Origin: Naegleria gruberi
Taxonomy: Eukaryota
Assembly (NCBI GenBank): GCA_000004985.1
Contig: GG738866.1
DNA: 64,000 nucleotides
Strand: one strand, 5' to 3'
Every line of letters starts with the position of its first letter. The first letter of the stretch is position 1. Both the position numbers and the translations under genes were made by a program. The notes beneath the pieces are model-generated. The model did no database searches and had not been told where the DNA came from. It saw only the letters and a list, made by a program, of their open reading frames with translations. Shown here one piece after another: positions 4,809 to 43,058 of the stretch.

Positions 4809-4916
4809 TTTTAATTTGATGGTCAAAATTCAAGCAACATGCTGGTACAATCATCAATACCAATATTGACTTTGATGCTTACAGTTATTCAAAAATTCAC
4901 TTAATTATGGGAGAAA

Positions 4917-5118
4917 GGGTGGCTCCAAAACTGACGGATAGTGCAATGTCTGCTTGAAACCTACCAAAGGGTGCTCTCAACTTGTTTCCAAGGAGGCACA
5001 CCTCTGGACCCGACAAAAAATTGAGTTAATAGTAAACGCGCCCCGTAGGACGCTTTCAGCTATTAAACTGAAAAGAACAGATACTACACTCGATCAAAGC
5101 CAAAAGGCCGAGAAAGAT
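4917..5118 (-). ncRNA. U2: U2 spliceosomal snRNA.
   Basis: The minus-strand read begins AUCUUUCUCGGCCUUUUGGCUUUGAUCGAGUGUAGUAUCUGUUCUUUUCAGUUUAAUAGCUGA, near-identical to the canonical U2 5' end and including the GUAGUA branch-point-pairing box. An Sm site AAUUUUUUG is present, the stem-loop IV loop is AUUGCACUAUCC, and the 3' end is ...GGAGCCACCC (canonical U2 ends CACCC). Confidence 0.9.
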
Positions 5119-5574
5119 GTTTTGTAGAAAAGGCTTACCAGTAGTGTATAAATGCCATTTCAAAGTGGCTTTGTTGGTGGAGAAAATTTGTGGGATTTGA
5201 ATATTTTTAAACAAGTTTGAAAATAAAATTGTGAGGAATGAAAAAGCCATCACATACCTTTCATTGATCCATATGTTCAGTTACAAAGCTTTTAGTTCTT
5301 TATTGGCTTCGTCTTTCATGATCACTGGAGCGGAAAGAAGAAAAGCGTTTCGTTTGAACATGTGCTTCGCTTCACATAGAACAAAGCAAACTTGGTACTA
5401 CCTAGGTATTGTTCTTGTGATGTCATATTGATGACATCGATTGATGGTGCGAAGATCGTTGTCGGCTGTTTTTTTTTTATTATTTAAAATAATTTGTTAA
5501 CGGTAATATTTTTAAAATTACCAAACTTAACACTAGAGGGTATATTAAACCTTTTATTTTACAATTAATGTGCT

Positions 5575-5645
5575 CGTCTCGTGGTGTAATGGTAGCATAG
5601 TGGACTTTGAATCCATTGACGGAGGTTCGATTCCTCCCGAGACGG
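5575..5645 (+). tRNA. tRNA-Gln, anticodon UUG, 71 nt, no intron.
   Basis: Cloverleaf read by hand. Acceptor CGTCTCG pairs with CGAGACG. D arm GTGT/AATGGTA/GCAT. Anticodon stem GTGGA/TCCAT with loop CTTTGAA, anticodon TTG. T arm GGAGG/TTCGATT/CCTCC. Discriminator G. Internal Pol III A box TGGTGTAATGG and a perfect B box GGTTCGATTCC. Close to canonical eukaryotic tRNA-Gln(UUG). Confidence 0.9.
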
Positions 5646-5666
5646 TAAACGTGGCGAGCCATGAAA

Positions 5667-5676
5667 TTTTTATTTT
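5667..5676 (+). terminator. Pol III terminator: T5 then T4 run, 22 nt downstream of tRNA-Gln.
   Basis: TTTTTATTTT lies immediately 3' of the tRNA. An oligo-T tract is the standard RNA polymerase III termination signal. Confidence 0.5.
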
Positions 5677-5925
5677 CAAATTGTTCAAATTGATGCATCA
5701 CTTGCATGTTAATTTTGATGATACTCCAGTTCACTCCATCAATTCCACACAAAATTTCTCCATTAAGCTGAAATACCGTACTCAACGGTCCAAAATGAAC
5801 ACTTTTACAAAAACTGAAACAGCCCATTCAATGATTCACTTTGCACAATTTGCTATCCACGCAAACGCTCCCAACACCAAGATTTCAAAGATTTCGCAGC
5901 AAACCAACAATCCAAATTAAAAAAA

Positions 5926-8437: not shown

Positions 8438-8747
8438 TTTTTTTCAAAGATTTCAATTTGGGATTTGATTCAAGTTTACAATAAAAATTTCACTTGTATC
8501 AATTGAGAAATATGATAAATATCATTGTAATAGGAGGAATTTCACAGAACGAGTTTGGTTTGTTAACTTGAAAAAGTATCCATCAGTTTCGTCTAAAAAT
8601 TGTTGAAAATGGTCACCTTCCCAATTTGACAAATACCCAATTCAATCCTTCCAAACAATCAATATGCTTTCCTATTTGCAAAACCACTTTAATTCTTTCA
8701 TATCCCACCTTACAAAAAAAAACTATTCGAAATCAAAATAATCAAAC

Positions 8748-37662: not shown

Positions 37663-38169
37663 TTTTGATCAACAACAAACAAAAAAAAACCTTTTTTTTT
37701 AAATTTACTTTGGAATTGTGAGGTTATTTTTAGATTTAAAGTTTGTTTGAACTTGGAAATTGTAAACTTTGTTTAATATTATTATTTTTATTCATTTAAC
37801 AAGTTGAATAATATGCAAAATTGATTAAGGGAGCGGAATATCACCATTACATTGAACATGATAAAACTATTCTTTTTCCAAGAAAAATTTGAGAAATTTG
37901 TTAAAAGTTGGATGAGTTCAAAAGAGGTTAGGAAAATAGGCGCGCATTTCACTTTACAGTTTTGATTAGAGTAGAGTCAAGACATGATTGTGAACCAATC
38001 TCAGTAATTTGAGGAAGGAACTTCAACACTTTCTGTAGTTTGAAACGTAGCAAGTTTTCACATAAGGTTTCGAATATACAATTGTGGAAGGTAAAACAGA
38101 AATGAGTAAAAAGAAAGAGGTGGAGAAACGGAATCACTCTACAACTAATCAAATGCTAATGTGTCTGTT

Positions 38170-38585
38170 CTCATTGTTGTACAGCACGTTTACTTCAAGT
38201 TTGACAAGATTTGGGGAAATTAAAATTGTTTTTTTTAAAATTTAAAGTATTTCATCTTTCAATTTTGATTTGGCAAGTAAACTCAACTCCATTTGAAAAG
38301 AATCTGTAACGATAATATTTTATTCAACAAAATGCTAATTTCTCGATGGAATTAAGGTAGTTTTGAAATCTGACTTCAAATTATGAATCCTCGCATTGAC
38401 ATACCCCTTGGGGTGGCAGCATTCTCAAAAATATGTAGAAATGAGTAAGAACGAGTGGTTAGGTGTTGTTCTATTGAAATGCTTATTTTGGATTTGACAG
38501 CAGAAGAACAACAAAATTTTTTCTAAATAATTTATTTTCTTTCAAAAAACGCGTCAAATTTGAAGTAAACGTGCTGTATCATCTG
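38170..38585. repeat. Inverted-repeat pair (24 of 25 bp) about 390 bp apart. Possible MITE-like non-autonomous element.
   Basis: At 38173..38199: GTACAGCACGTTTACTTCAAGTTTGAC. At 38557..38583: GTCAAATTTGAAGTAAACGTGCTGTAT. These are reverse complements with one mismatch. The interior is AT-rich and non-coding. Confidence 0.35.
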
Positions 38586-38802
38586 AAAATGATTATTGTA
38601 CGAGAATCGAATAATGTTAAAAATATGTTGAAACGTGATAGATCGAACATTTCAGGGCCAAACTCCATATTTCCAAATGAGTAGCAAATGTGAAACCACA
38701 ACATCAAGTTAATACATTGGAGTTCCTTCCTTAAATTACTGAGATGCGCCAATTCTGTCAAAGTTGTACAATTAATAAGTCACAAATCAAAACCAATTTT
38801 GG

Positions 38803-39432
38803 ATGCCATTTAAGGAAACTTTAAAAACCAAAGAAATGTGTCAGCTCATGGCGTCAAGGCTTGTGAAATGGTTCATGCCTACCGCCAACTATCATGTTCG
38901 AAAAACAATCAAAAAAAACACAATGATGAACAACTCTAACATCAAGGAATTACATTTTAATAATCAAGAAACAAGCCTTGTTTCGAATGAAAAGATGATC
39001 AGCTCACCATTATCAGAAGAAACATGCTGTACTAACGAACCAGAGAGGGTTTGGATTCATTTCGGTCACATTCCACATGTTTCGAATAGTTTACAACCAA
39101 CAAGCCTTGAGCAAATGAAATCAACTCTTCACCAACCTAAAGTGATGATTGAGAAACAGAGAAAAACAGAAAGACTCCTTCAGGATAGAATCACAGGTAA
39201 ATTATTCTATCAATCAACCGAATCTCATTCGAAATCTCTCAAACAACCTCTGTTTATCCCATCTCAATTCAACGATTCTGAAAGAAAGCCTCCTTCGATC
39301 AAGGAAGAACGTAGAAGAGCCAAAGAGAGGTCTCAAAAAGCCTTGTTAGAAAGCATTCGAAACCAGCCTATTTCACTTCCAACATCCTATTCCATCGTGA
39401 GAAGAGTACTTAACTTCGATGATGAGGAATAA
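38803..39432 (+). CDS. Hypothetical low-complexity protein, 209 aa, founder copy of the local repeat family.
   Basis: ATG-initiated ORF. Its 3' half plus downstream flank is the template for the two degenerate copies at 40055..40570 and 41590..41982. Confidence 0.4.
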   Translation: MPFKETLKTKEMCQLMASRLVKWFMPTANYHVRKTIKKNTMMNNSNIKELHFNNQETSLVSNEKMISSPLSEETCCTNEPERVWIHFGHIPHVSNSLQPTSLEQMKSTLHQPKVMIEKQRKTERLLQDRITGKLFYQSTESHSKSLKQPLFIPSQFNDSERKPPSIKEERRRAKERSQKALLESIRNQPISLPTSYSIVRRVLNFDDEE

Positions 39433-39720
39433 TCAAAATGTCCACCCAAATATCACCAAACGTTCTACGTTCCCTCCAAATAATGGCCTTATATAATAAA
39501 CTTCAATTGTAATCTCAAAAATTTCAGATCTCCTTCCTGTTTCAAGAAAATCTTTTAAAGGAATTTTTGAAGGAGATTTATTTGGTACAAAACTTCCATT
39601 ACTCCAAGCAATTATTAATTGTTGCAAAAAATTGACCTTATTTATCAGAAATGCCCGAGATCATTTTCTCCATTCTGTCACCTTGAAAAAATTGCATATG
39701 AACAAAAGTTCATTCTCGAA
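39047..39720 (+). repeat. Local tandem repeat family, copy A (intact, overlaps the 3' half of gene 38803..39432 and its 3' flank).
   Basis: Aligns by eye with 40055..40570 (offset 1010 bp) and 41590..41982. The shared blocks are CCACATGTTTCGAATA.TTTACA.CCAA.AAGCCTTGAGCA, GATGATTGA.AAACAGAGAAAAAC.GAAAGACTCCTTCA.GATAGA, CAAACGTTCTACGTTCC and GACCTTATTTATCA.AAATGCC. Confidence 0.6.
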
Positions 39721-40054
39721 TTACCAATTCTAAACTTTGAAACTTTAATGGTTTCGAATAATACAACGACTCCAACCACGATTGTATTTGCTCATTTCCT
39801 TATTCTATTTGATCTTTGATGAAAATCGTTTAGGCGAATCATATTATTAAAATGTCATTTTCATGCATGCTTAATATTTTCGAAATGGTCAATAAACTAC
39901 GATATTCGAAATGTAAAGTGACTAGGATAACTAACTTAACTATTACCTTTTTACATTTGTGAAAGATTGAAAAATTCTCATAAAAGTTTCGAATAGATGT
40001 TATATATACCAACAACATCTCTGCTACTCATACGACATGTCATGCATCCAAAAT

Positions 40055-40570
40055 AATACACCATTTAGTCCAGAGACACTTTCCACATGTTTCGAATAAT
40101 TTACATCCAAAAAGCCTTGAGCATGAATTAACTCTGCAACACCTAAAATTATGATGATTGAAAAACAGAGAAAAACTGAAAGACTCCTTCAAGATAGAAT
40201 CACACACAGAGTCTTTCAACATCCTATTCCAACACGAGAAGAGTGCTAAACTTTGCTGACGATGAATAATCAAAAATCACACAAATATCATCAAACGTTC
40301 TACGTTCCATGCCAACACCATAATAAATTTCATAAAATCTCAAAAGTCGTTCCAAATAATTCTATAAAAGGATTTATTGAAAGAATGTCCAAGCAATTTG
40401 ACATACTTGGTCCTCTTCAATTACCTTATAAAAATGACCTTATTTATCACAAATGCCGATCATATTCTCCTTCCATCAACCACAGCTGTCTCCATGAAAA
40501 TTGTTGATTAAAATAATCAAACAGACCCTTAATTGGAAGATCATCATGTTGCATCTCAGTTAGGGTTCTT
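40055..40570 (+). repeat. Local tandem repeat family, copy B (degenerate, with a roughly 190 bp internal deletion and frame disruptions; pseudogene-like).
   Basis: It has the same blocks as copy A but lacks the segment GTAAATTATTC...CACTTCCA, and stops interrupt the reading frame. Confidence 0.6.
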
Positions 40571-40743
40571 TTTGAGATGCAATTCTCTGATTGAGACGCT
40601 AACCCTGGTAAGACTGTGTAGTCTGATTGTGTGGGGTACTTATGTAAAATGGAGTTCAATACTTGTTGAAGAAAATTTTTGAAACAATTTTTCACAACAT
40701 TCAAGAGTTAAACAAATAAACAACAAACAAGTTGAGTTATCTG

Positions 40744-41217
40744 ATGGAAAGTTCAAGAAGAATGGGTGGTGGCTCATCTGGAGAGGTTGCAATCATGATG
40801 GAAGAATCAGAAATGTTAAAGGAAAGAGATCAGGAAGGCTTGGAAAGGTATTGTAGAATAGTTTCGAATACATGTGGAGATTATCCTTTGGCATGTTGGA
40901 GTGGAAGGCTTCCCTTTTTTACTTCTATTGATGAGAGTGTGCATAACACGAATCATTGGGATGATCTTTTCAATCAATACTATTCAACTCAACATGTATT
41001 CGAAACATGTCAGGACGAATTGAAACTTTCCACTTTGAAAAGAAAGAGAAGAGTGAAAGAGCCTTCTTTGAGTGCAACACATGAAGAACCTATTGACAAC
41101 GAGGAACAAGATGAATTAGTACAGCTGAATGAAGAGGATTCATTCTCTGGACGAAACATTAAAAAGACGAAACGTTTACATGCATGCTCTTCATTATCAG
41201 AGCAGAAGGAAGAATAA
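40744..41217 (+). CDS. Hypothetical protein, 157 aa, lying between repeat copies B and C.
   Basis: ATG is at 40744; the track start at 40732 is TTG. No motif. It contains two in-frame instances of the locally enriched GTTTCGAATA motif, one on each strand. Confidence 0.3.
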   Translation: MESSRRMGGGSSGEVAIMMEESEMLKERDQEGLERYCRIVSNTCGDYPLACWSGRLPFFTSIDESVHNTNHWDDLFNQYYSTQHVFETCQDELKLSTLKRKRRVKEPSLSATHEEPIDNEEQDELVQLNEEDSFSGRNIKKTKRLHACSSLSEQKEE

Positions 41218-41589
41218 ACATCAAAATTATATTCACCCATAAACATGTTCATTCAATATAAAGAAAGAATTCGTTTTTTTATAGTTTTGTTTTTGTTGAT
41301 CAGAATAATGTGAATGAATTGTTTGAAACTTGGACATGTAGTGATGGTAACGAATGGTATCTGTAAACTCTAGAATAGGTTTCCTGAGAATATCATCCAT
41401 TTCGAATAGCATCTCTCCAATATTTCACTTCCCAACAACATCTTTCAATCTCTGAAACGATGCAGTAGTTTCAAATGATATCCCTGCTAAGATTGAAAAA
41501 CTTGATAATCACACTATCTTAGTCACGGTTAATATTTCATATTAATTGCTTGGATGATATTGGGGATTCCAATAACACTGAGCTTACAT

Positions 41590-41982
41590 CGAAAAAGCGT
41601 TGAACAAATGAATTAACTCTGCAATACCTAAAGTGATTATTGAAAAACAGAGAAAAACTGAAAGACTCCTTCAAGATAGATAAAATCACACAAATATCAT
41701 CAAACGTTCTACGTTACATGCCAACACCACAAAAAATTTCATAAAATCTCAAAAATTCAGGTCTCTTTCCTCTTGTTCCAAATAATTCTATAAAAGGATT
41801 TATTGAAAGAATGTCCAAGCAATTTGACATACTTGGTCCTCTTCACTTACCTAATAAAAATGACCTTATTTATCACAAATGCCGATCATATTCTCCTTCC
41901 ATCAACCACAGCCTAAAAAACCCATGAAAATTGTTGATTAAAAAAATCTAACAGACCCTTAATGGAAGAGCATCATGTGCTC
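41590..41982 (+). repeat. Local tandem repeat family, copy C (degenerate, larger internal deletion, truncated by the 50 nt gap).
   Basis: It is closest to copy B, sharing AATTAACTCTGCAA.ACCTAAA and the whole 3' flank TCTATAAAAGGATTTATTGAAAGAATGTCCAAGCAATTTGACATACTTGGTCCTCTTCA.TTACCT.ATAAAAATGACCTTATTTATCACAAATGCCGATCATATTCTCCTTCCATCAACCACAGC. Confidence 0.6.
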
Positions 41983-42032
41983 NNNNNNNNNNNNNNNNNN
42001 NNNNNNNNNNNNNNNNNNNNNNNNNNNNNNNN
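41983..42032. other. Assembly gap: 50 N, conventional unknown-size scaffold gap.
   Basis: Run of exactly 50 N. Confidence 0.95.
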
Positions 42033-42047
42033 TAATAATAGGAGAAA

Positions 42048-42249
42048 GGGTGGCTCCAAAACTGACGGATAGTGCAATGTCTGCTTGAAACCTACCAAAG
42101 GGTGCTCTCAACTTGTTTCCAAGGAGGCACACCTCTGGACCCGACAAAAAATTGAGTTAATAGTAAACGCGCCCCGTAGGACGCTTTCAGCTATTAAACT
42201 GAAAAGAACAGATACTACACTCGATCAAAGCCAAAAGGCCGAGAAAGAT
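42048..42249 (-). ncRNA. U2: U2 spliceosomal snRNA, second copy.
   Basis: Identical to 4917..5118 at offset 37131. Confidence 0.85.
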
Positions 42250-42705
42250 GTTTTGTAGAAAAGGCTTACCAGTAGTGTATAAATGCCATTTCAAAGTGGC
42301 TTTGTTGGTGGAGAAAATTTGTGGGATTTGAATATTTTTAAACAAGTTTGAAAATAAAATTGTGAGGAATGAAAAAGCCATCACATACCTTTCATTGATC
42401 CATATGTTCAGTTACAAAGCTTTTAGTTCTTTATTGGCTTCGTCTTTCATGATCACTGGAGCGGAAAGAAGAAAAGCGTTTCGTTTGAACATGTGCTTCG
42501 CTTCACATAGAACAAAGCAAACTTGGTACTACCTAGGTATTGTTCTTGTGATGTCATATTGATGACATCGATTGATGGTGCGAAGATCGTTGTCGGCTGT
42601 TTTTTTTTTATTATTTAAAATAATTTGTTAACGGTAATATTTTTAAAATTACCAAACTTAACACTAGAGGGTATATTAAACCTTTTATTTTACAATTAAT
42701 GTGCT

Positions 42706-42776
42706 CGTCTCGTGGTGTAATGGTAGCATAGTGGACTTTGAATCCATTGACGGAGGTTCGATTCCTCCCGAGACGG
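42706..42776 (+). tRNA. tRNA-Gln(UUG), second copy.
   Basis: Identical to 5575..5645 at offset 37131. Confidence 0.85.
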
Positions 42777-43058
42777 TAAACGTGGCGAGCCATGAAATTT
42801 TTATTTTCAAATTGTTCAAATTGATGCATCACTTGTATGTTAATTTTGATGATACTCCAGTTCACTCCATCAATTCCACACAAAATTTCTCCATTAAGCT
42901 GAAATACCGTACTCAACGGTCCAAAATGAACACTTTTACAAAAACTGAAACAGCCCATTCAATGATTCACTTTGCACAATTTGCTATCCACGCAAACGCT
43001 CCCAACACCAAGATTTCAAAGATTTCGCAGCAAACCAAAATCCAAATAAAAAAAATAA

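What the first reader, a model, noticed from the sequence alone, without database searches (positions are those of the whole stretch)
38050..41990. Gene-poor 4 kb tract: three tandem copies in progressive decay, plus a strongly over-represented GTTTCGAATA motif
The 3' half of hypothetical gene 38803..39432 and about 300 bp of its flank reappear at 40055 and again at 41590. Each later copy has larger internal deletions and a broken frame. Copies B and C are more similar to each other than to A, which suggests serial tandem duplication followed by pseudogenisation. The tract ends at the assembly gap, so more copies may exist. The 10-mer GTTTCGAATA (core TTCGAA is palindromic) occurs at 38067, 39079, 39751, 39986, 40089, 40861, as the reverse complement at 40996 and as ATTTCGAATA at 41399, often extended to CATGTTTCGAATA. 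Looser TTTCGAAA / ATTCGAAATG variants occur at 38886, 39871 and 39906. I did not notice the 10-mer elsewhere in the resolved 43 kb. It occurs both inside ORFs, where it encodes VSN or FET, and in non-coding DNA, so it behaves as a DNA-level element such as a transcription-factor site, recombination hotspot or repeat seed.
Basis: seen in the sequence. Interest (0 to 1): 0.5.

Follow-up and report, generated by a model that had tools for sequence, protein, structure and literature searches.

The report
Orphan-gene tandem array with clustered 10-mer
At the end of a Naegleria gruberi scaffold, a two-gene unit found only in this lineage has been copied in tandem and is partly decaying; the same stretch is studded with a real but unexplained 10-base DNA word, a local curiosity rather than a new kind of system.

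Summary
Both observations hold. The window is the last 43 kb of a 469-kb Naegleria gruberi scaffold; bases 43059-64000 are N padding.

**Repeats.** The 3' half of gene A (NAEGRDRAFT_48817) and its flank recur at about 40077 (copy B) and about 41581 (copy C). Each later copy has larger deletions and a broken frame. Flank identity is 94.5% for B-C and about 68% for either against A. The true repeat unit is larger, about 1.45 kb: truncated gene A, flank, gene 2 (NAEGRDRAFT_67165) and a spacer. Two metagenome contigs from a related amoeba (L001, L002) carry the same units, so the array is old. The gap at 41983 probably hides another gene 2 copy.

**Motif.** RTTTCGAATR occurs 12 times in 3.3 kb (0.06 expected) and twice in the other 39.7 kb. 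Flanks of the sites are unrelated except for the A/B pair. All three Val-Ser-Asn tripeptides in the two genes use the rarest Ser codon, so the word is a DNA-level element. It fails the tRNA B-box and heat-shock-element definitions and is not a short tandem repeat.

**Function.** My best guess, at low confidence, is a cluster of binding sites for an unknown DNA-binding factor. Conservation in the relative does not exceed background. The genome-wide count could not be run. Both genes are orphans without a confident fold.

The parts
37998..38745 (.). Degraded palindrome of about 750 bp upstream of gene A. The terminal arms are 29 nt at 93% and an inner block is 26 nt at 96%. The left arm carries motif site 38067; the right arm has no counterpart.
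   Evidence: alignment score 114 against 41 +/- 8 for shuffles
38803..39432 (+). Gene A, NAEGRDRAFT_48817. The ORF starts at 38803 and the annotated model at 38848. The coding part conserved in the relative is 38923-39432 (169 aa). It is an orphan protein, mostly disordered with two confident helices. It holds motif sites 38980 (+), 39079 (+), 39226 (-) and 39354 (-), plus a looser site at 38897.
   Evidence: (dN/dS 0.18 against L001)
39433..39672 (+). 3' flank of gene A (flank copy A).
39673..40076 (.). Spacer 1, absent from relative contig L001. It is motif-rich: 39751 (+), 39879 (TTTTCGAAAT), 39903 (-), 39986 (+). Its 3' half shows weak colinear traces of the gene 2 3' end plus spacer 2, so it may be a collapsed gene 2 copy.
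   Evidence: z = 2.3 only
40077..40269 (+). Copy B, a truncated gene A with frameshifts. It lacks about 180 bp of A and keeps motif site 40089.
   Evidence: frames read from the sequence
40270..40549 (+). Flank copy B: 94.5% identical to C, 92.1% to L002, 69% to A.
40744..41217 (+). Gene 2, NAEGRDRAFT_67165 (annotated from 40762). The TTG at 40732 is an ATG in the relative. It is an orphan with no confident fold. Motif sites 40861 (+) and 40997 (-) form a perfect 15-nt inverted repeat, GTTTCGAATACATGT, at 40861-40875 and 40992-41006.
   Evidence: (dN/dS 0.42)
41218..41580 (.). Spacer 2, with motif site 41399 (ATTTCGAATA). It shares TTTCGAATAG ... CCAACAACATCT with site 39986.
41581..41681 (+). 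Copy C, the shortest remnant of gene A. Only the helix-1 segment is left, and the motif site has been deleted.
41682..41982 (+). Flank copy C, running into the assembly gap. It is 94.5% identical to the flank in L002, which continues straight into a full gene 2.
41983..42032 (.). Assembly gap of 50 N. It probably hides at least one more gene 2 copy.
   Evidence: inference
38067..41408 (.). Span of the RTTTCGAATR cluster, 12 sites. On +: 38067, 38980, 39079, 39751, 39986, 40089, 40861, 41399. On -: 39226, 39354, 39903, 40997. Two looser TTCGAA sites lie at 38897 and 39879.

Best explanation
**Structure (shown).** The tract is the end of a Naegleria gruberi scaffold. It carries a tandem array, restricted to this lineage, of an about 1.45-kb unit made of orphan gene A, its 3' flank, orphan gene 2 and a spacer.
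- Unit 1 keeps an intact gene A that is under purifying selection. Its gene 2 has been lost or collapsed into a 400-bp spacer.
- Unit 2 keeps a frame-broken stump of gene A (copy B) and an intact gene 2.
- Unit 3 keeps a smaller stump (copy C) and runs into the assembly gap.
- The array predates the split from a related amoeba seen in a metagenome.

**Motif (shown).** Superimposed on the array is an oriented 10-bp DNA word, RTTTCGAATR. At its fullest it is the 19-bp near-palindrome ACATGTTTCGAATACATGT. It occurs 12 times in 3.3 kb. Neither the visible duplications nor coding requirements account for it.

**Function (inferred).** The sites are most likely recognition sites for a sequence-specific DNA-binding protein acting on this locus, that is, a homotypic binding-site cluster controlling transcription or chromatin of the orphan genes. 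Some sites were inherited along with the duplicated units. The stated confidence applies to this functional reading; the structural part I hold at about 0.85.
For: **Organism and genes.** Two window ORFs are identical to N. gruberi XP_002677478 and XP_002677480 on a 469,335-bp contig. Gene A is NAEGRDRAFT_48817 and gene 2 is NAEGRDRAFT_67165.

**Array.** The colinear copies are shown. Flank identities are B-C 94.5%, C-L002 94.5%, B-L002 92.1% and A against these 67-69%. L001 runs gene A, flank, then the start of a gene 2. L002 runs a truncated gene A, flank, then a full gene 2. Gene A has dN/dS 0.18 and gene 2 has 0.42.

**Motif enrichment.** See, and (12 observed against 0.06 expected; scan bound 6e-10).

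**Independence of the sites.** Only 39079/40089 have homologous flanks, and 39986/41399 are marginal. There is no short-period repeat. After masking B and C the motif and the 37998-38745 inverted repeat stand out among the 148 repeated 9-mers, a total compared only with unmasked full-length controls.

**DNA-level constraint.** TCG makes up 6.3% of Ser codons in 8,313 neighbouring codons, yet all three VSN tripeptides are GTT TCG AAT. VSN is also about 25 times more frequent in these two genes than in their neighbours.

**Shape of the motif.** Position -1 is T in 13 of 14 sites, +1 is T in 12 of 14, and both outer positions are purines. Sites occur on both strands, as expected for a protein recognition site of about 17 bits. 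The single substitution seen in any site between this strain and the relative is A to G at a degenerate R position.
Against: - No binding factor is known, and the word matches no motif I could name.
- Conservation of the sites in the relative is not significantly above background: 1 change in 80 motif positions against 19 in 430 flank positions, p = 0.15. Neutral divergence is only about 6-12%.
- Sites are not concentrated just upstream of the two genes. Six of the twelve lie inside coding sequence, which is unusual for a promoter element.
- Copy C lost its site through a small deletion, so not every site is maintained.
- Whether the word is rare across the genome or marks other loci could not be tested. 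The N. gruberi assembly is not in any DNA collection the tools reach.
- If the weak colinearity of spacer 1 with gene 2 plus spacer 2 is real, several sites are duplication copies and the number of independent sites drops to about 9.
Confidence: 0.4

Rival explanations
1. The motif sites are the last recognisable cores of much older duplications of a short segment, either an ancient repeat or the termini of a small mobile element. They were carried along passively and have no present function.
For: The locus is demonstrably prone to duplication. Sites 39079/40089 certainly, and 39986/41399 probably, are duplication copies. In both unit 1 and unit 2 the site order (+, -, +, then the gene A stump) is the same. 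There are three convergent (+,-) pairs, spaced 147, 152 and 136 bp. One of them is a perfect 15-nt inverted repeat.
Against: Neutral decay should erode the 10-mer as fast as its flanks. Yet 7 copies are perfect while their flanks show no similarity. There is no tandem periodicity and no target-site duplications. Two of the pairs sit inside ORFs that are conserved in the relative. No copy exists elsewhere in the 39.7 kb of neighbouring DNA.
Confidence: 0.25
2. The word is a recombination or breakage hotspot, for example the target of a site-specific nuclease or recombinase, or a small palindrome prone to hairpin formation. On this reading it causes the duplications and deletions of the tract.
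For: Several rearrangement end points lie close to sites. The 5' edge of B is about 23 bp upstream of 40089. The deletion in C removes the site. The 53-bp deletion in L002 starts 7 nt after the site. The 180-bp deletion in B ends 12 bp from 39354. The core TTCGAA is palindromic, and one site is a 19-bp near-palindrome.
Against: With one site every 100-150 bp in that stretch, lying within 30 bp of a site is expected about 40-50% of the time by chance. The breakpoint between the gene A flank and spacer 1 (39672) is 80 bp from any site. No recombinase or nuclease gene is nearby. The consensus is asymmetric (T on both sides of TTCGAA), so most sites are not hairpin-forming palindromes.
Confidence: 0.1
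3. The sites are relics of tRNA genes or SINEs, or function as B-box-like 'extra TFIIIC' sites. That would fit the neighbouring U2 snRNA and tRNA-Gln cassette.
For: GTTTCGAATA matches 8 of 10 positions of the canonical T-arm and B-box sequence GGTTCGAATC (consensus recalled from memory). A tRNA-Gln and U2 snRNA cassette lies just beyond the gap.
Against: The position equivalent to the invariant G53 is T in 13 of 14 sites, and the trailing CC is replaced by T plus a purine. The window's own tRNA-Gln B box is GGTTCGATTCC. ARAGORN and Rfam at E <= 1 find no tRNA-like sequence in the tract. Random decay of tRNA genes would not give the same substitutions at every site.
Confidence: 0.04
4. The apparent array and enrichment are assembly artefacts at a poorly resolved scaffold end, caused by collapsed or chimeric reads or by haplotypes placed in tandem.
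For: The tract abuts a gap. The only contig beyond the gap is a 1,026-bp near-identical (99.5%) copy of 4902-5925 that ends the scaffold.
Against: B and C differ by 5.5% and by several indels, too much for read error. Independent metagenome contigs reproduce both unit types and eight of the motif sites.
Confidence: 0.03

Closest known systems
Birth-and-death tandem gene arrays (segmental tandem duplication with pseudogene remnants)
   Same: The copies are colinear and in the same orientation, with a period of about 1.4-1.5 kb. Later copies have nested deletions and broken frames. The paralogues predate a split between strains or species. One copy stays under purifying selection.
   Different: The unit holds two unrelated orphan genes, and different units keep a different one of the two. 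In a relative the truncated copy is still an in-frame mini-ORF.
Homotypic clusters of transcription-factor binding sites in eukaryotic regulatory DNA; as a loose analogy, the SPE2 arrays bound by PfSIP2 in Plasmodium subtelomeres (recalled from memory)
   Same: There are many copies of one short oriented word, on both strands, packed into a few kb, with unrelated flanks.
   Different: Half of the sites lie inside coding sequence. No factor is known, and there is no evidence for the same word at other loci. Conservation is not shown, and a subtelomeric position is not shown.
tRNA B box and extra-TFIIIC (ETC) sites
   Same: They share the TTCGAAT core and lie close to Pol III- and snRNA-type genes.
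   Different: The motif fails the defining G53 and C61-C62 positions, and no tRNA-like structure is present.
Heat-shock elements (nTTCnnGAAn)
   Same: Both contain TTC and GAA triplets in inverted orientation.
   Different: The triplets abut with no 2-bp spacer, so the pentamer register of a heat-shock element is absent.

Membership tests
Tandem segmental duplication / birth-and-death array | Two or more colinear, same-strand copies of a multi-hundred-bp segment at a regular distance | tested here: met
   A, B and C are on the + strand with spacings of about 1010 and 1409-1485 bp.
Tandem segmental duplication / birth-and-death array | Copies diverged by substitutions and indels, with some losing the reading frame | tested here: met
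   B-C identity is 94.5%, and A against B or C is 67-69%. Frameshifts and deletions in B and C were read.
Tandem segmental duplication / birth-and-death array | Independent support that the copies are real rather than an assembly artefact | tested here: met
   Metagenome contigs L001 and L002 reproduce both unit types.
Homotypic transcription-factor binding-site cluster | Local density of one short word far above the composition-based and neighbourhood expectation | tested here: met
   12 sites against 0.06 expected; scan bound 6e-10.
Homotypic transcription-factor binding-site cluster | Sites independent of one another, not copies of a longer repeat | tested here: met
   Flanks are unrelated except for one sure pair and one marginal pair. 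TRF finds nothing.
Homotypic transcription-factor binding-site cluster | Sites conserved beyond the neutral rate in relatives | tested here: inconclusive
   1 change in 80 motif positions against 19 in 430 flank positions, p = 0.15. Divergence is too low to discriminate.
Homotypic transcription-factor binding-site cluster | A protein binds the word, and/or the word marks co-regulated genes genome-wide | not testable with these tools
   The N. gruberi assembly is not in any reachable DNA collection. No expression or binding data were found.
tRNA B box / ETC (TFIIIC) site | Match to GGTTCGANTCC, including G53, C56 and C61-C62 | tested here: not met
   T replaces G53 in 13 of 14 sites, and T plus a purine replaces the CC. 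The window's own tRNA-Gln has GGTTCGATTCC.
tRNA B box / ETC (TFIIIC) site | tRNA-like or SINE-like context (A box, cloverleaf) | tested here: not met
   ARAGORN finds no tRNA in the tract. Rfam at E <= 1 finds only a chance MS2 hit.
Heat-shock element | Inverted nGAAn pentamers, i.e. TTC and GAA separated by 2 nt | tested here: not met
   All sites have TTCGAA with zero spacing.
Mini- or microsatellite | Head-to-tail periodic copies | tested here: not met
   TRF at minimum score 30 finds only trivial AT-rich arrays.
MITE / TIR transposon with the word as terminus | Terminal inverted repeats plus target-site duplication, and insertion polymorphism | tested here: inconclusive
   Three convergent pairs lie 136-152 bp apart, one with 15-nt perfect arms. 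Two of the pairs lie inside ORFs conserved in the relative and the third lies in spacer 1. No target-site duplication was seen, and no other copies occur in the window.

The most novel reading that the evidence does not exclude
RTTTCGAATR is the recognition site of a Naegleria-specific DNA-binding factor, conceivably one of the two nuclear-looking orphan proteins encoded in the array itself. The factor and its site cluster would form a self-contained module, either autoregulatory or selfish. The module's sites would be preserved even where the surrounding unit decays beyond recognition, as in spacer 1. Alternatively, the cluster marks a chromosomal landmark such as an insulator or a replication- or segregation-related site.
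Probability: 0.1. Interest if true: 0.55.

Novelty: new member of a known kind. Interest (0 to 1): 0.3.

Why it matters
Almost nothing is known about cis-regulatory DNA in Naegleria or in Heterolobosea generally. A sharply defined 10-bp word with 12 copies in 3.3 kb is a ready-made probe for finding a sequence-specific DNA-binding protein in this lineage, by EMSA, DNA pull-down or DAP-seq.

The array is also a compact example of orphan-gene birth and death in which different units keep different genes.

Beyond that it is a local feature of one scaffold end. Nothing found here suggests a new class of genetic element.

Tried and rejected
- **Homologues of gene A and gene 2.** The word-indexed search and exhaustive HMMER over 1.84 billion representatives returned only self and the metagenome contigs. 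One further hit, P0008, is a spurious low-complexity tandem-repeat protein. Pfam found nothing significant and the PDB sequence search found nothing.
- **Related loci in other collections.** Scans of JGI metagenome contigs with both proteins and of IMG/VR with gene A found nothing.
- **Non-genic ORFs.** A concatenate of all non-genic ORF translations of the tract was searched, hoping to pull more contigs covering the spacers. Nothing was found.
- **N. gruberi DNA.** Fetching it through the look-up of encoding contigs failed; the assembly is not on record. The genome-wide k-mer count therefore could not be run.
- **Structure prediction.** Gene 2 gave pLDDT 46. Gene A gave pLDDT 62 and pTM 0.24, with two isolated helices. 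Both are too poor for fold search, which I did not run.
- **Literature.** There were no hits for the gene identifiers, nothing useful for the motif string (only primers), and no Naegleria promoter-motif study. The supplements of the mitosis RNA-seq paper are not held. The Naegleria kinetochore preprint gives no centromere sequences.
- **Spacer homology.** Spacer 1 against spacer 2 gives no significant local alignment. A colinear alignment against gene 2 plus spacer 2 is only marginal, z = 2.3.
- **Known RNAs.** Rfam finds none in the tract.
- **Conservation test.** An initial version that counted gap columns as changes gave p = 0.006. I rejected it as inflated by a 53-bp deletion; counting substitutions only gives p = 0.15.

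Full report
**What the window is**

Only bases 1-43058 are sequence. Bases 41983-42032 are a 50-N gap and 43059-64000 are padding. GC content is about 34% and the window holds long intron-poor ORFs. Two ORFs are residue-for-residue identical to Naegleria gruberi XP_002677478 and XP_002677480 on a 469,335-bp contig. The tract therefore sits at the end of a N. gruberi NEG-M scaffold. The two ORFs in the tract are annotated predicted proteins:
- Gene A is NAEGRDRAFT_48817 (EFC44739).
- Gene 2 is NAEGRDRAFT_67165 (EFC44740).

**Checking the repeats**

The repeat finder, BLAST and MAFFT confirm three colinear copies on the + strand:

| Copy | Gene A part | 3' flank |
|---|---|---|
| A | 39067-39432 | 39433-39672 |
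| B | 40077-40269 | 40270-40549 |
| C | 41581-41681 | 41682-41982 |

- B lacks about 180 bp of A (about 39197-39375). Small indels bring in a stop codon.
- C keeps only the segment encoding helix 1 of gene A. It has lost both the motif site and the whole C-terminal coding part.
- In the flank, B-C identity is 94.5%, while A is 67-69% identical to either.

The only homologues of either protein anywhere are two short contigs from one ENA metagenome, ERZ929261.
- L001 (1311 bp) carries a gene A orthologue. Its CDS is 95.9% identical with dN/dS 0.18, so gene A is a real gene under selection. Its flank follows, and then directly the start of a gene 2 copy.
- L002 (1069 bp) starts at CATGTTTCGAATA. 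It carries a truncated gene A, a flank, and a complete gene 2. Its flank is 94.5% identical to copy C and 92.1% to B, and it shares C-specific indels.

From this I draw four conclusions.
- The ancestral unit is gene A (or its stump), flank, gene 2 and a spacer, about 1.45 kb in all.
- The relative has at least two units.
- The B-C split is about as old as the split between the two amoebae.
- Copy C in this strain is very probably followed, inside the gap, by another gene 2.

In this strain the first unit has no gene 2. A 404-bp spacer (39673-40076), absent from L001, stands in its place. Its 3' half shares colinear short matches with the gene 2 3' end and spacer 2: CATGCATGCT, TTTCGAATAG and CCAACAACATCT. 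The alignment is only marginally better than shuffles (z = 2.3; local alignment not significant). 'Collapsed gene 2 copy' is therefore a suggestion, not a result.

In L002 the truncated gene A copy is still an uninterrupted in-frame ORF from HVSN to the stop codon (read). The frame-broken state of B and C applies to this strain only.

**Checking the motif**

- GTTTCGAATA has 7 exact hits, all between 38067 and 41006, against 0.08 expected from shuffles.
- With one mismatch allowed, 11 of 18 hits lie in the tract.
- TTCGAA occurs 30 times in the window, 14 of them in 38069-41401.
- Aligned and oriented, the sites give R-T-TTCGAA-T-R. The T at -1 is present in 13 of 14 sites and the T at +1 in 12 of 14. 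The word is therefore directional despite its palindromic core.
- Eight sites are on the + strand and four on the - strand.
- RTTTCGAATR has 12 sites in a 3,342-bp span (0.06 expected from composition) and 2 in the remaining 39.7 kb (0.7 expected). The scan-statistic bound is 6e-10, or 6e-8 after removing the two possibly paralogous sites.
- An unbiased k-mer comparison of the tract with the rest of the window ranks this word first at k = 7, 8 and 10; at k = 6 the overlapping TCGAAA ranks just above the TTCGAA core.
- ACATGT is a weaker second signal. Five of its eight copies abut the motif. The fullest version is the 19-bp near-palindrome ACATGTTTCGAATACATGT, read on the - strand at 40991-41009.

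**Is the motif a by-product of the duplications or of coding?**

Not of the visible duplications.
- With the 10-mer excluded, only the flanks of 39079 and 40089 (the A/B pair) are clearly homologous. The pair 39986/41399 is marginal, and all other pairs are at background.
- TRF finds no periodic array.
- With B and C masked, the motif and the 37998-38745 inverted repeat stand out among the 148 repeated 9-mers; the total was not compared with length-matched controls.

Not of coding.
- In 8,313 codons of neighbouring genes, TCG is the rarest Ser codon (6.3%) and the tripeptide VSN occurs 3 times.
- In the 326 codons of gene A and gene 2, VSN also occurs 3 times, each time as GTT TCG AAT.
- Other sites are read as HSK, IRN and FET, or lie in non-coding DNA.

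**What it is not**

- *tRNA B box or extra-TFIIIC site.* The canonical form is GGTTCGANTCC (recalled from memory), and the window's own tRNA-Gln has GGTTCGATTCC. The motif has T at the G53 position and T plus a purine in place of CC. ARAGORN and Rfam find nothing tRNA-like in the tract.
- *Heat-shock element.* There is no 2-nt spacer between TTC and GAA.
- *Satellite.* TRF finds no array.
- *Known RNA.* Rfam finds none.
- *Virus-derived.* No IMG/VR relative of gene A was found.

**What it most likely is**

A 10-bp oriented word of about 17 bits, present on both strands in unrelated contexts, is what a cluster of protein recognition sites looks like. I commit to that reading at about 0.4.

The comparative test that could have strengthened it has no power. 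All eight sites covered by L001 and L002 keep the TTTCGAAT core, and the single change is A to G at a degenerate R position. However, substitutions in the flanks run at only 4.4%, which gives p = 0.15. An earlier p of 0.006 was inflated by gap columns and I discarded it.

Points against a simple promoter role:
- Six of the twelve sites lie inside coding sequence.
- The sites are not concentrated just upstream of the start codons.
- Copy C has lost its site.

The rival readings are set out in the rival-explanations section with their evidence: passive relics of older duplications or of a small inverted-repeat element (0.25), a recombination or breakage hotspot (0.1), B-box relics (0.04), and assembly artefact (0.03).

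Two patterns are worth recording.
- There are three convergent (+,-) site pairs: 39079/39226, 39751/39903 and 40861/40997. Their spacings are 147, 152 and 136 bp. The last pair is a perfect 15-nt inverted repeat that folds as single-stranded DNA with z = -3.3.
- The order of sites (+, -, +, then the gene A stump) is the same in unit 1 and unit 2.

If spacer 1 really is a collapsed gene 2, the sites have outlived everything around them. That would argue for selection on them, but it rests on the weak alignment.

**The proteins**

Both are orphans.
- Gene A is predicted to be mostly disordered, with two confident basic helices (pLDDT 62, pTM 0.24).
- Gene 2 has no confident structure (pLDDT 46).

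Both contain basic stretches resembling nuclear localisation signals (KRKRRVK, KKTKR, EERRRAKER). These were read by eye only. No DNA-binding domain is detectable.

**Limits**

The N. gruberi assembly is not in any DNA collection the tools can read. 'Absent elsewhere' therefore rests on 39.7 kb of neighbouring sequence. No expression or binding data were reachable.

**Verdict**

The duplication interpretation is right in outline, but the unit is larger and the events are older than proposed. The motif is a genuine DNA-level cluster of unknown function.

In kind it is ordinary: a decaying tandem orphan-gene array plus an uncharacterised cis-word. I score interest at 0.3 and novelty as a new member of a known kind.

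Noticed in passing
window 4902-5925 and 42033-43055: A cassette of U2 snRNA (- strand, 4915-5120 and 42046-42251) and tRNA-Gln(TTG) (+ strand, 5574-5646 and 42705-42777) is present twice at 99.5% identity. The second copy is the entire 1,026-bp contig after the gap and ends the scaffold. It may be a mis-scaffolded read or a genuinely dispersed snRNA/tRNA cassette. The 115-aa ORFs listed at 5480-5827 and 42611-42958 lie on the - strand across the tRNA-Gln copies (5574-5646, 42705-42777) and may be spurious; not checked.
   Followed up: partly
window 37998-38745: A degraded palindrome of about 750 bp lies in the 1.5-kb intergenic region upstream of gene A. Its terminal arms are 29 nt at 93% and an inner block is 26 nt at 96%. 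The overall arm alignment scores 114 against 41 +/- 8 for shuffles. It is foldback- or MITE-like and has no other copy in the window. Contig L001 breaks off exactly at its right arm.
   Followed up: partly
window 1-38029 versus 38030-41982: The CpG observed/expected ratio is 0.39 in the bulk of the window and 0.65 in the tract. The strong general CpG depletion is notable for an organism with a Tet-like enzyme (from memory). The local excess may reflect the 14 TTCGAA sites, each of which carries a CpG; their share of the excess was not computed.
   Followed up: no
window 38740-38922, and L001 3-187: The 183 bp upstream of the conserved gene A start (ATG at 38923) is 96% identical to the relative. 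A 1-nt indel nevertheless destroys the annotated N-terminal extension (models starting at 38803 or 38848). The real start is probably 38923, and the upstream block would then be a conserved 5' UTR or promoter.
   Followed up: partly
window 40732, and L002 582: The gene 2 start differs between the strains. The relative has ATG where this strain has TTG, and the first ATG here is at 40744 (annotated start 40762). The N-terminal 25 residues also differ by in-frame indels among the window, L001 and L002.
   Followed up: no
L002 1-117: In the metagenome relative the truncated gene A copy is an intact 38-codon in-frame ORF, HVSNSLHERRKTDRLLQDRLSFTSYSSARRELNYADDE*. It keeps the helix-1 and C-terminal segments through two in-frame deletions, so it could be a functional mini-paralogue rather than a pseudogene.
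   Followed up: no
window 39135-39189, 40144-40198, 41626-41680: The segment encoding helix 1 of gene A (KVMIEKQRKTERLLQDR) is the best preserved piece in every copy: 82-93% identity to A, and nearly identical among B, C and L002. This holds even where the rest of the gene has been deleted.
   Followed up: no
window 8724-8733: One of the only two RTTTCGAATR sites outside the tract (ATTTCGAATA, - strand) lies 15 bp upstream of the ATG of NAEGRDRAFT_48808. The other, at 101-110, is inside a kinase-like ORF.
   Followed up: no
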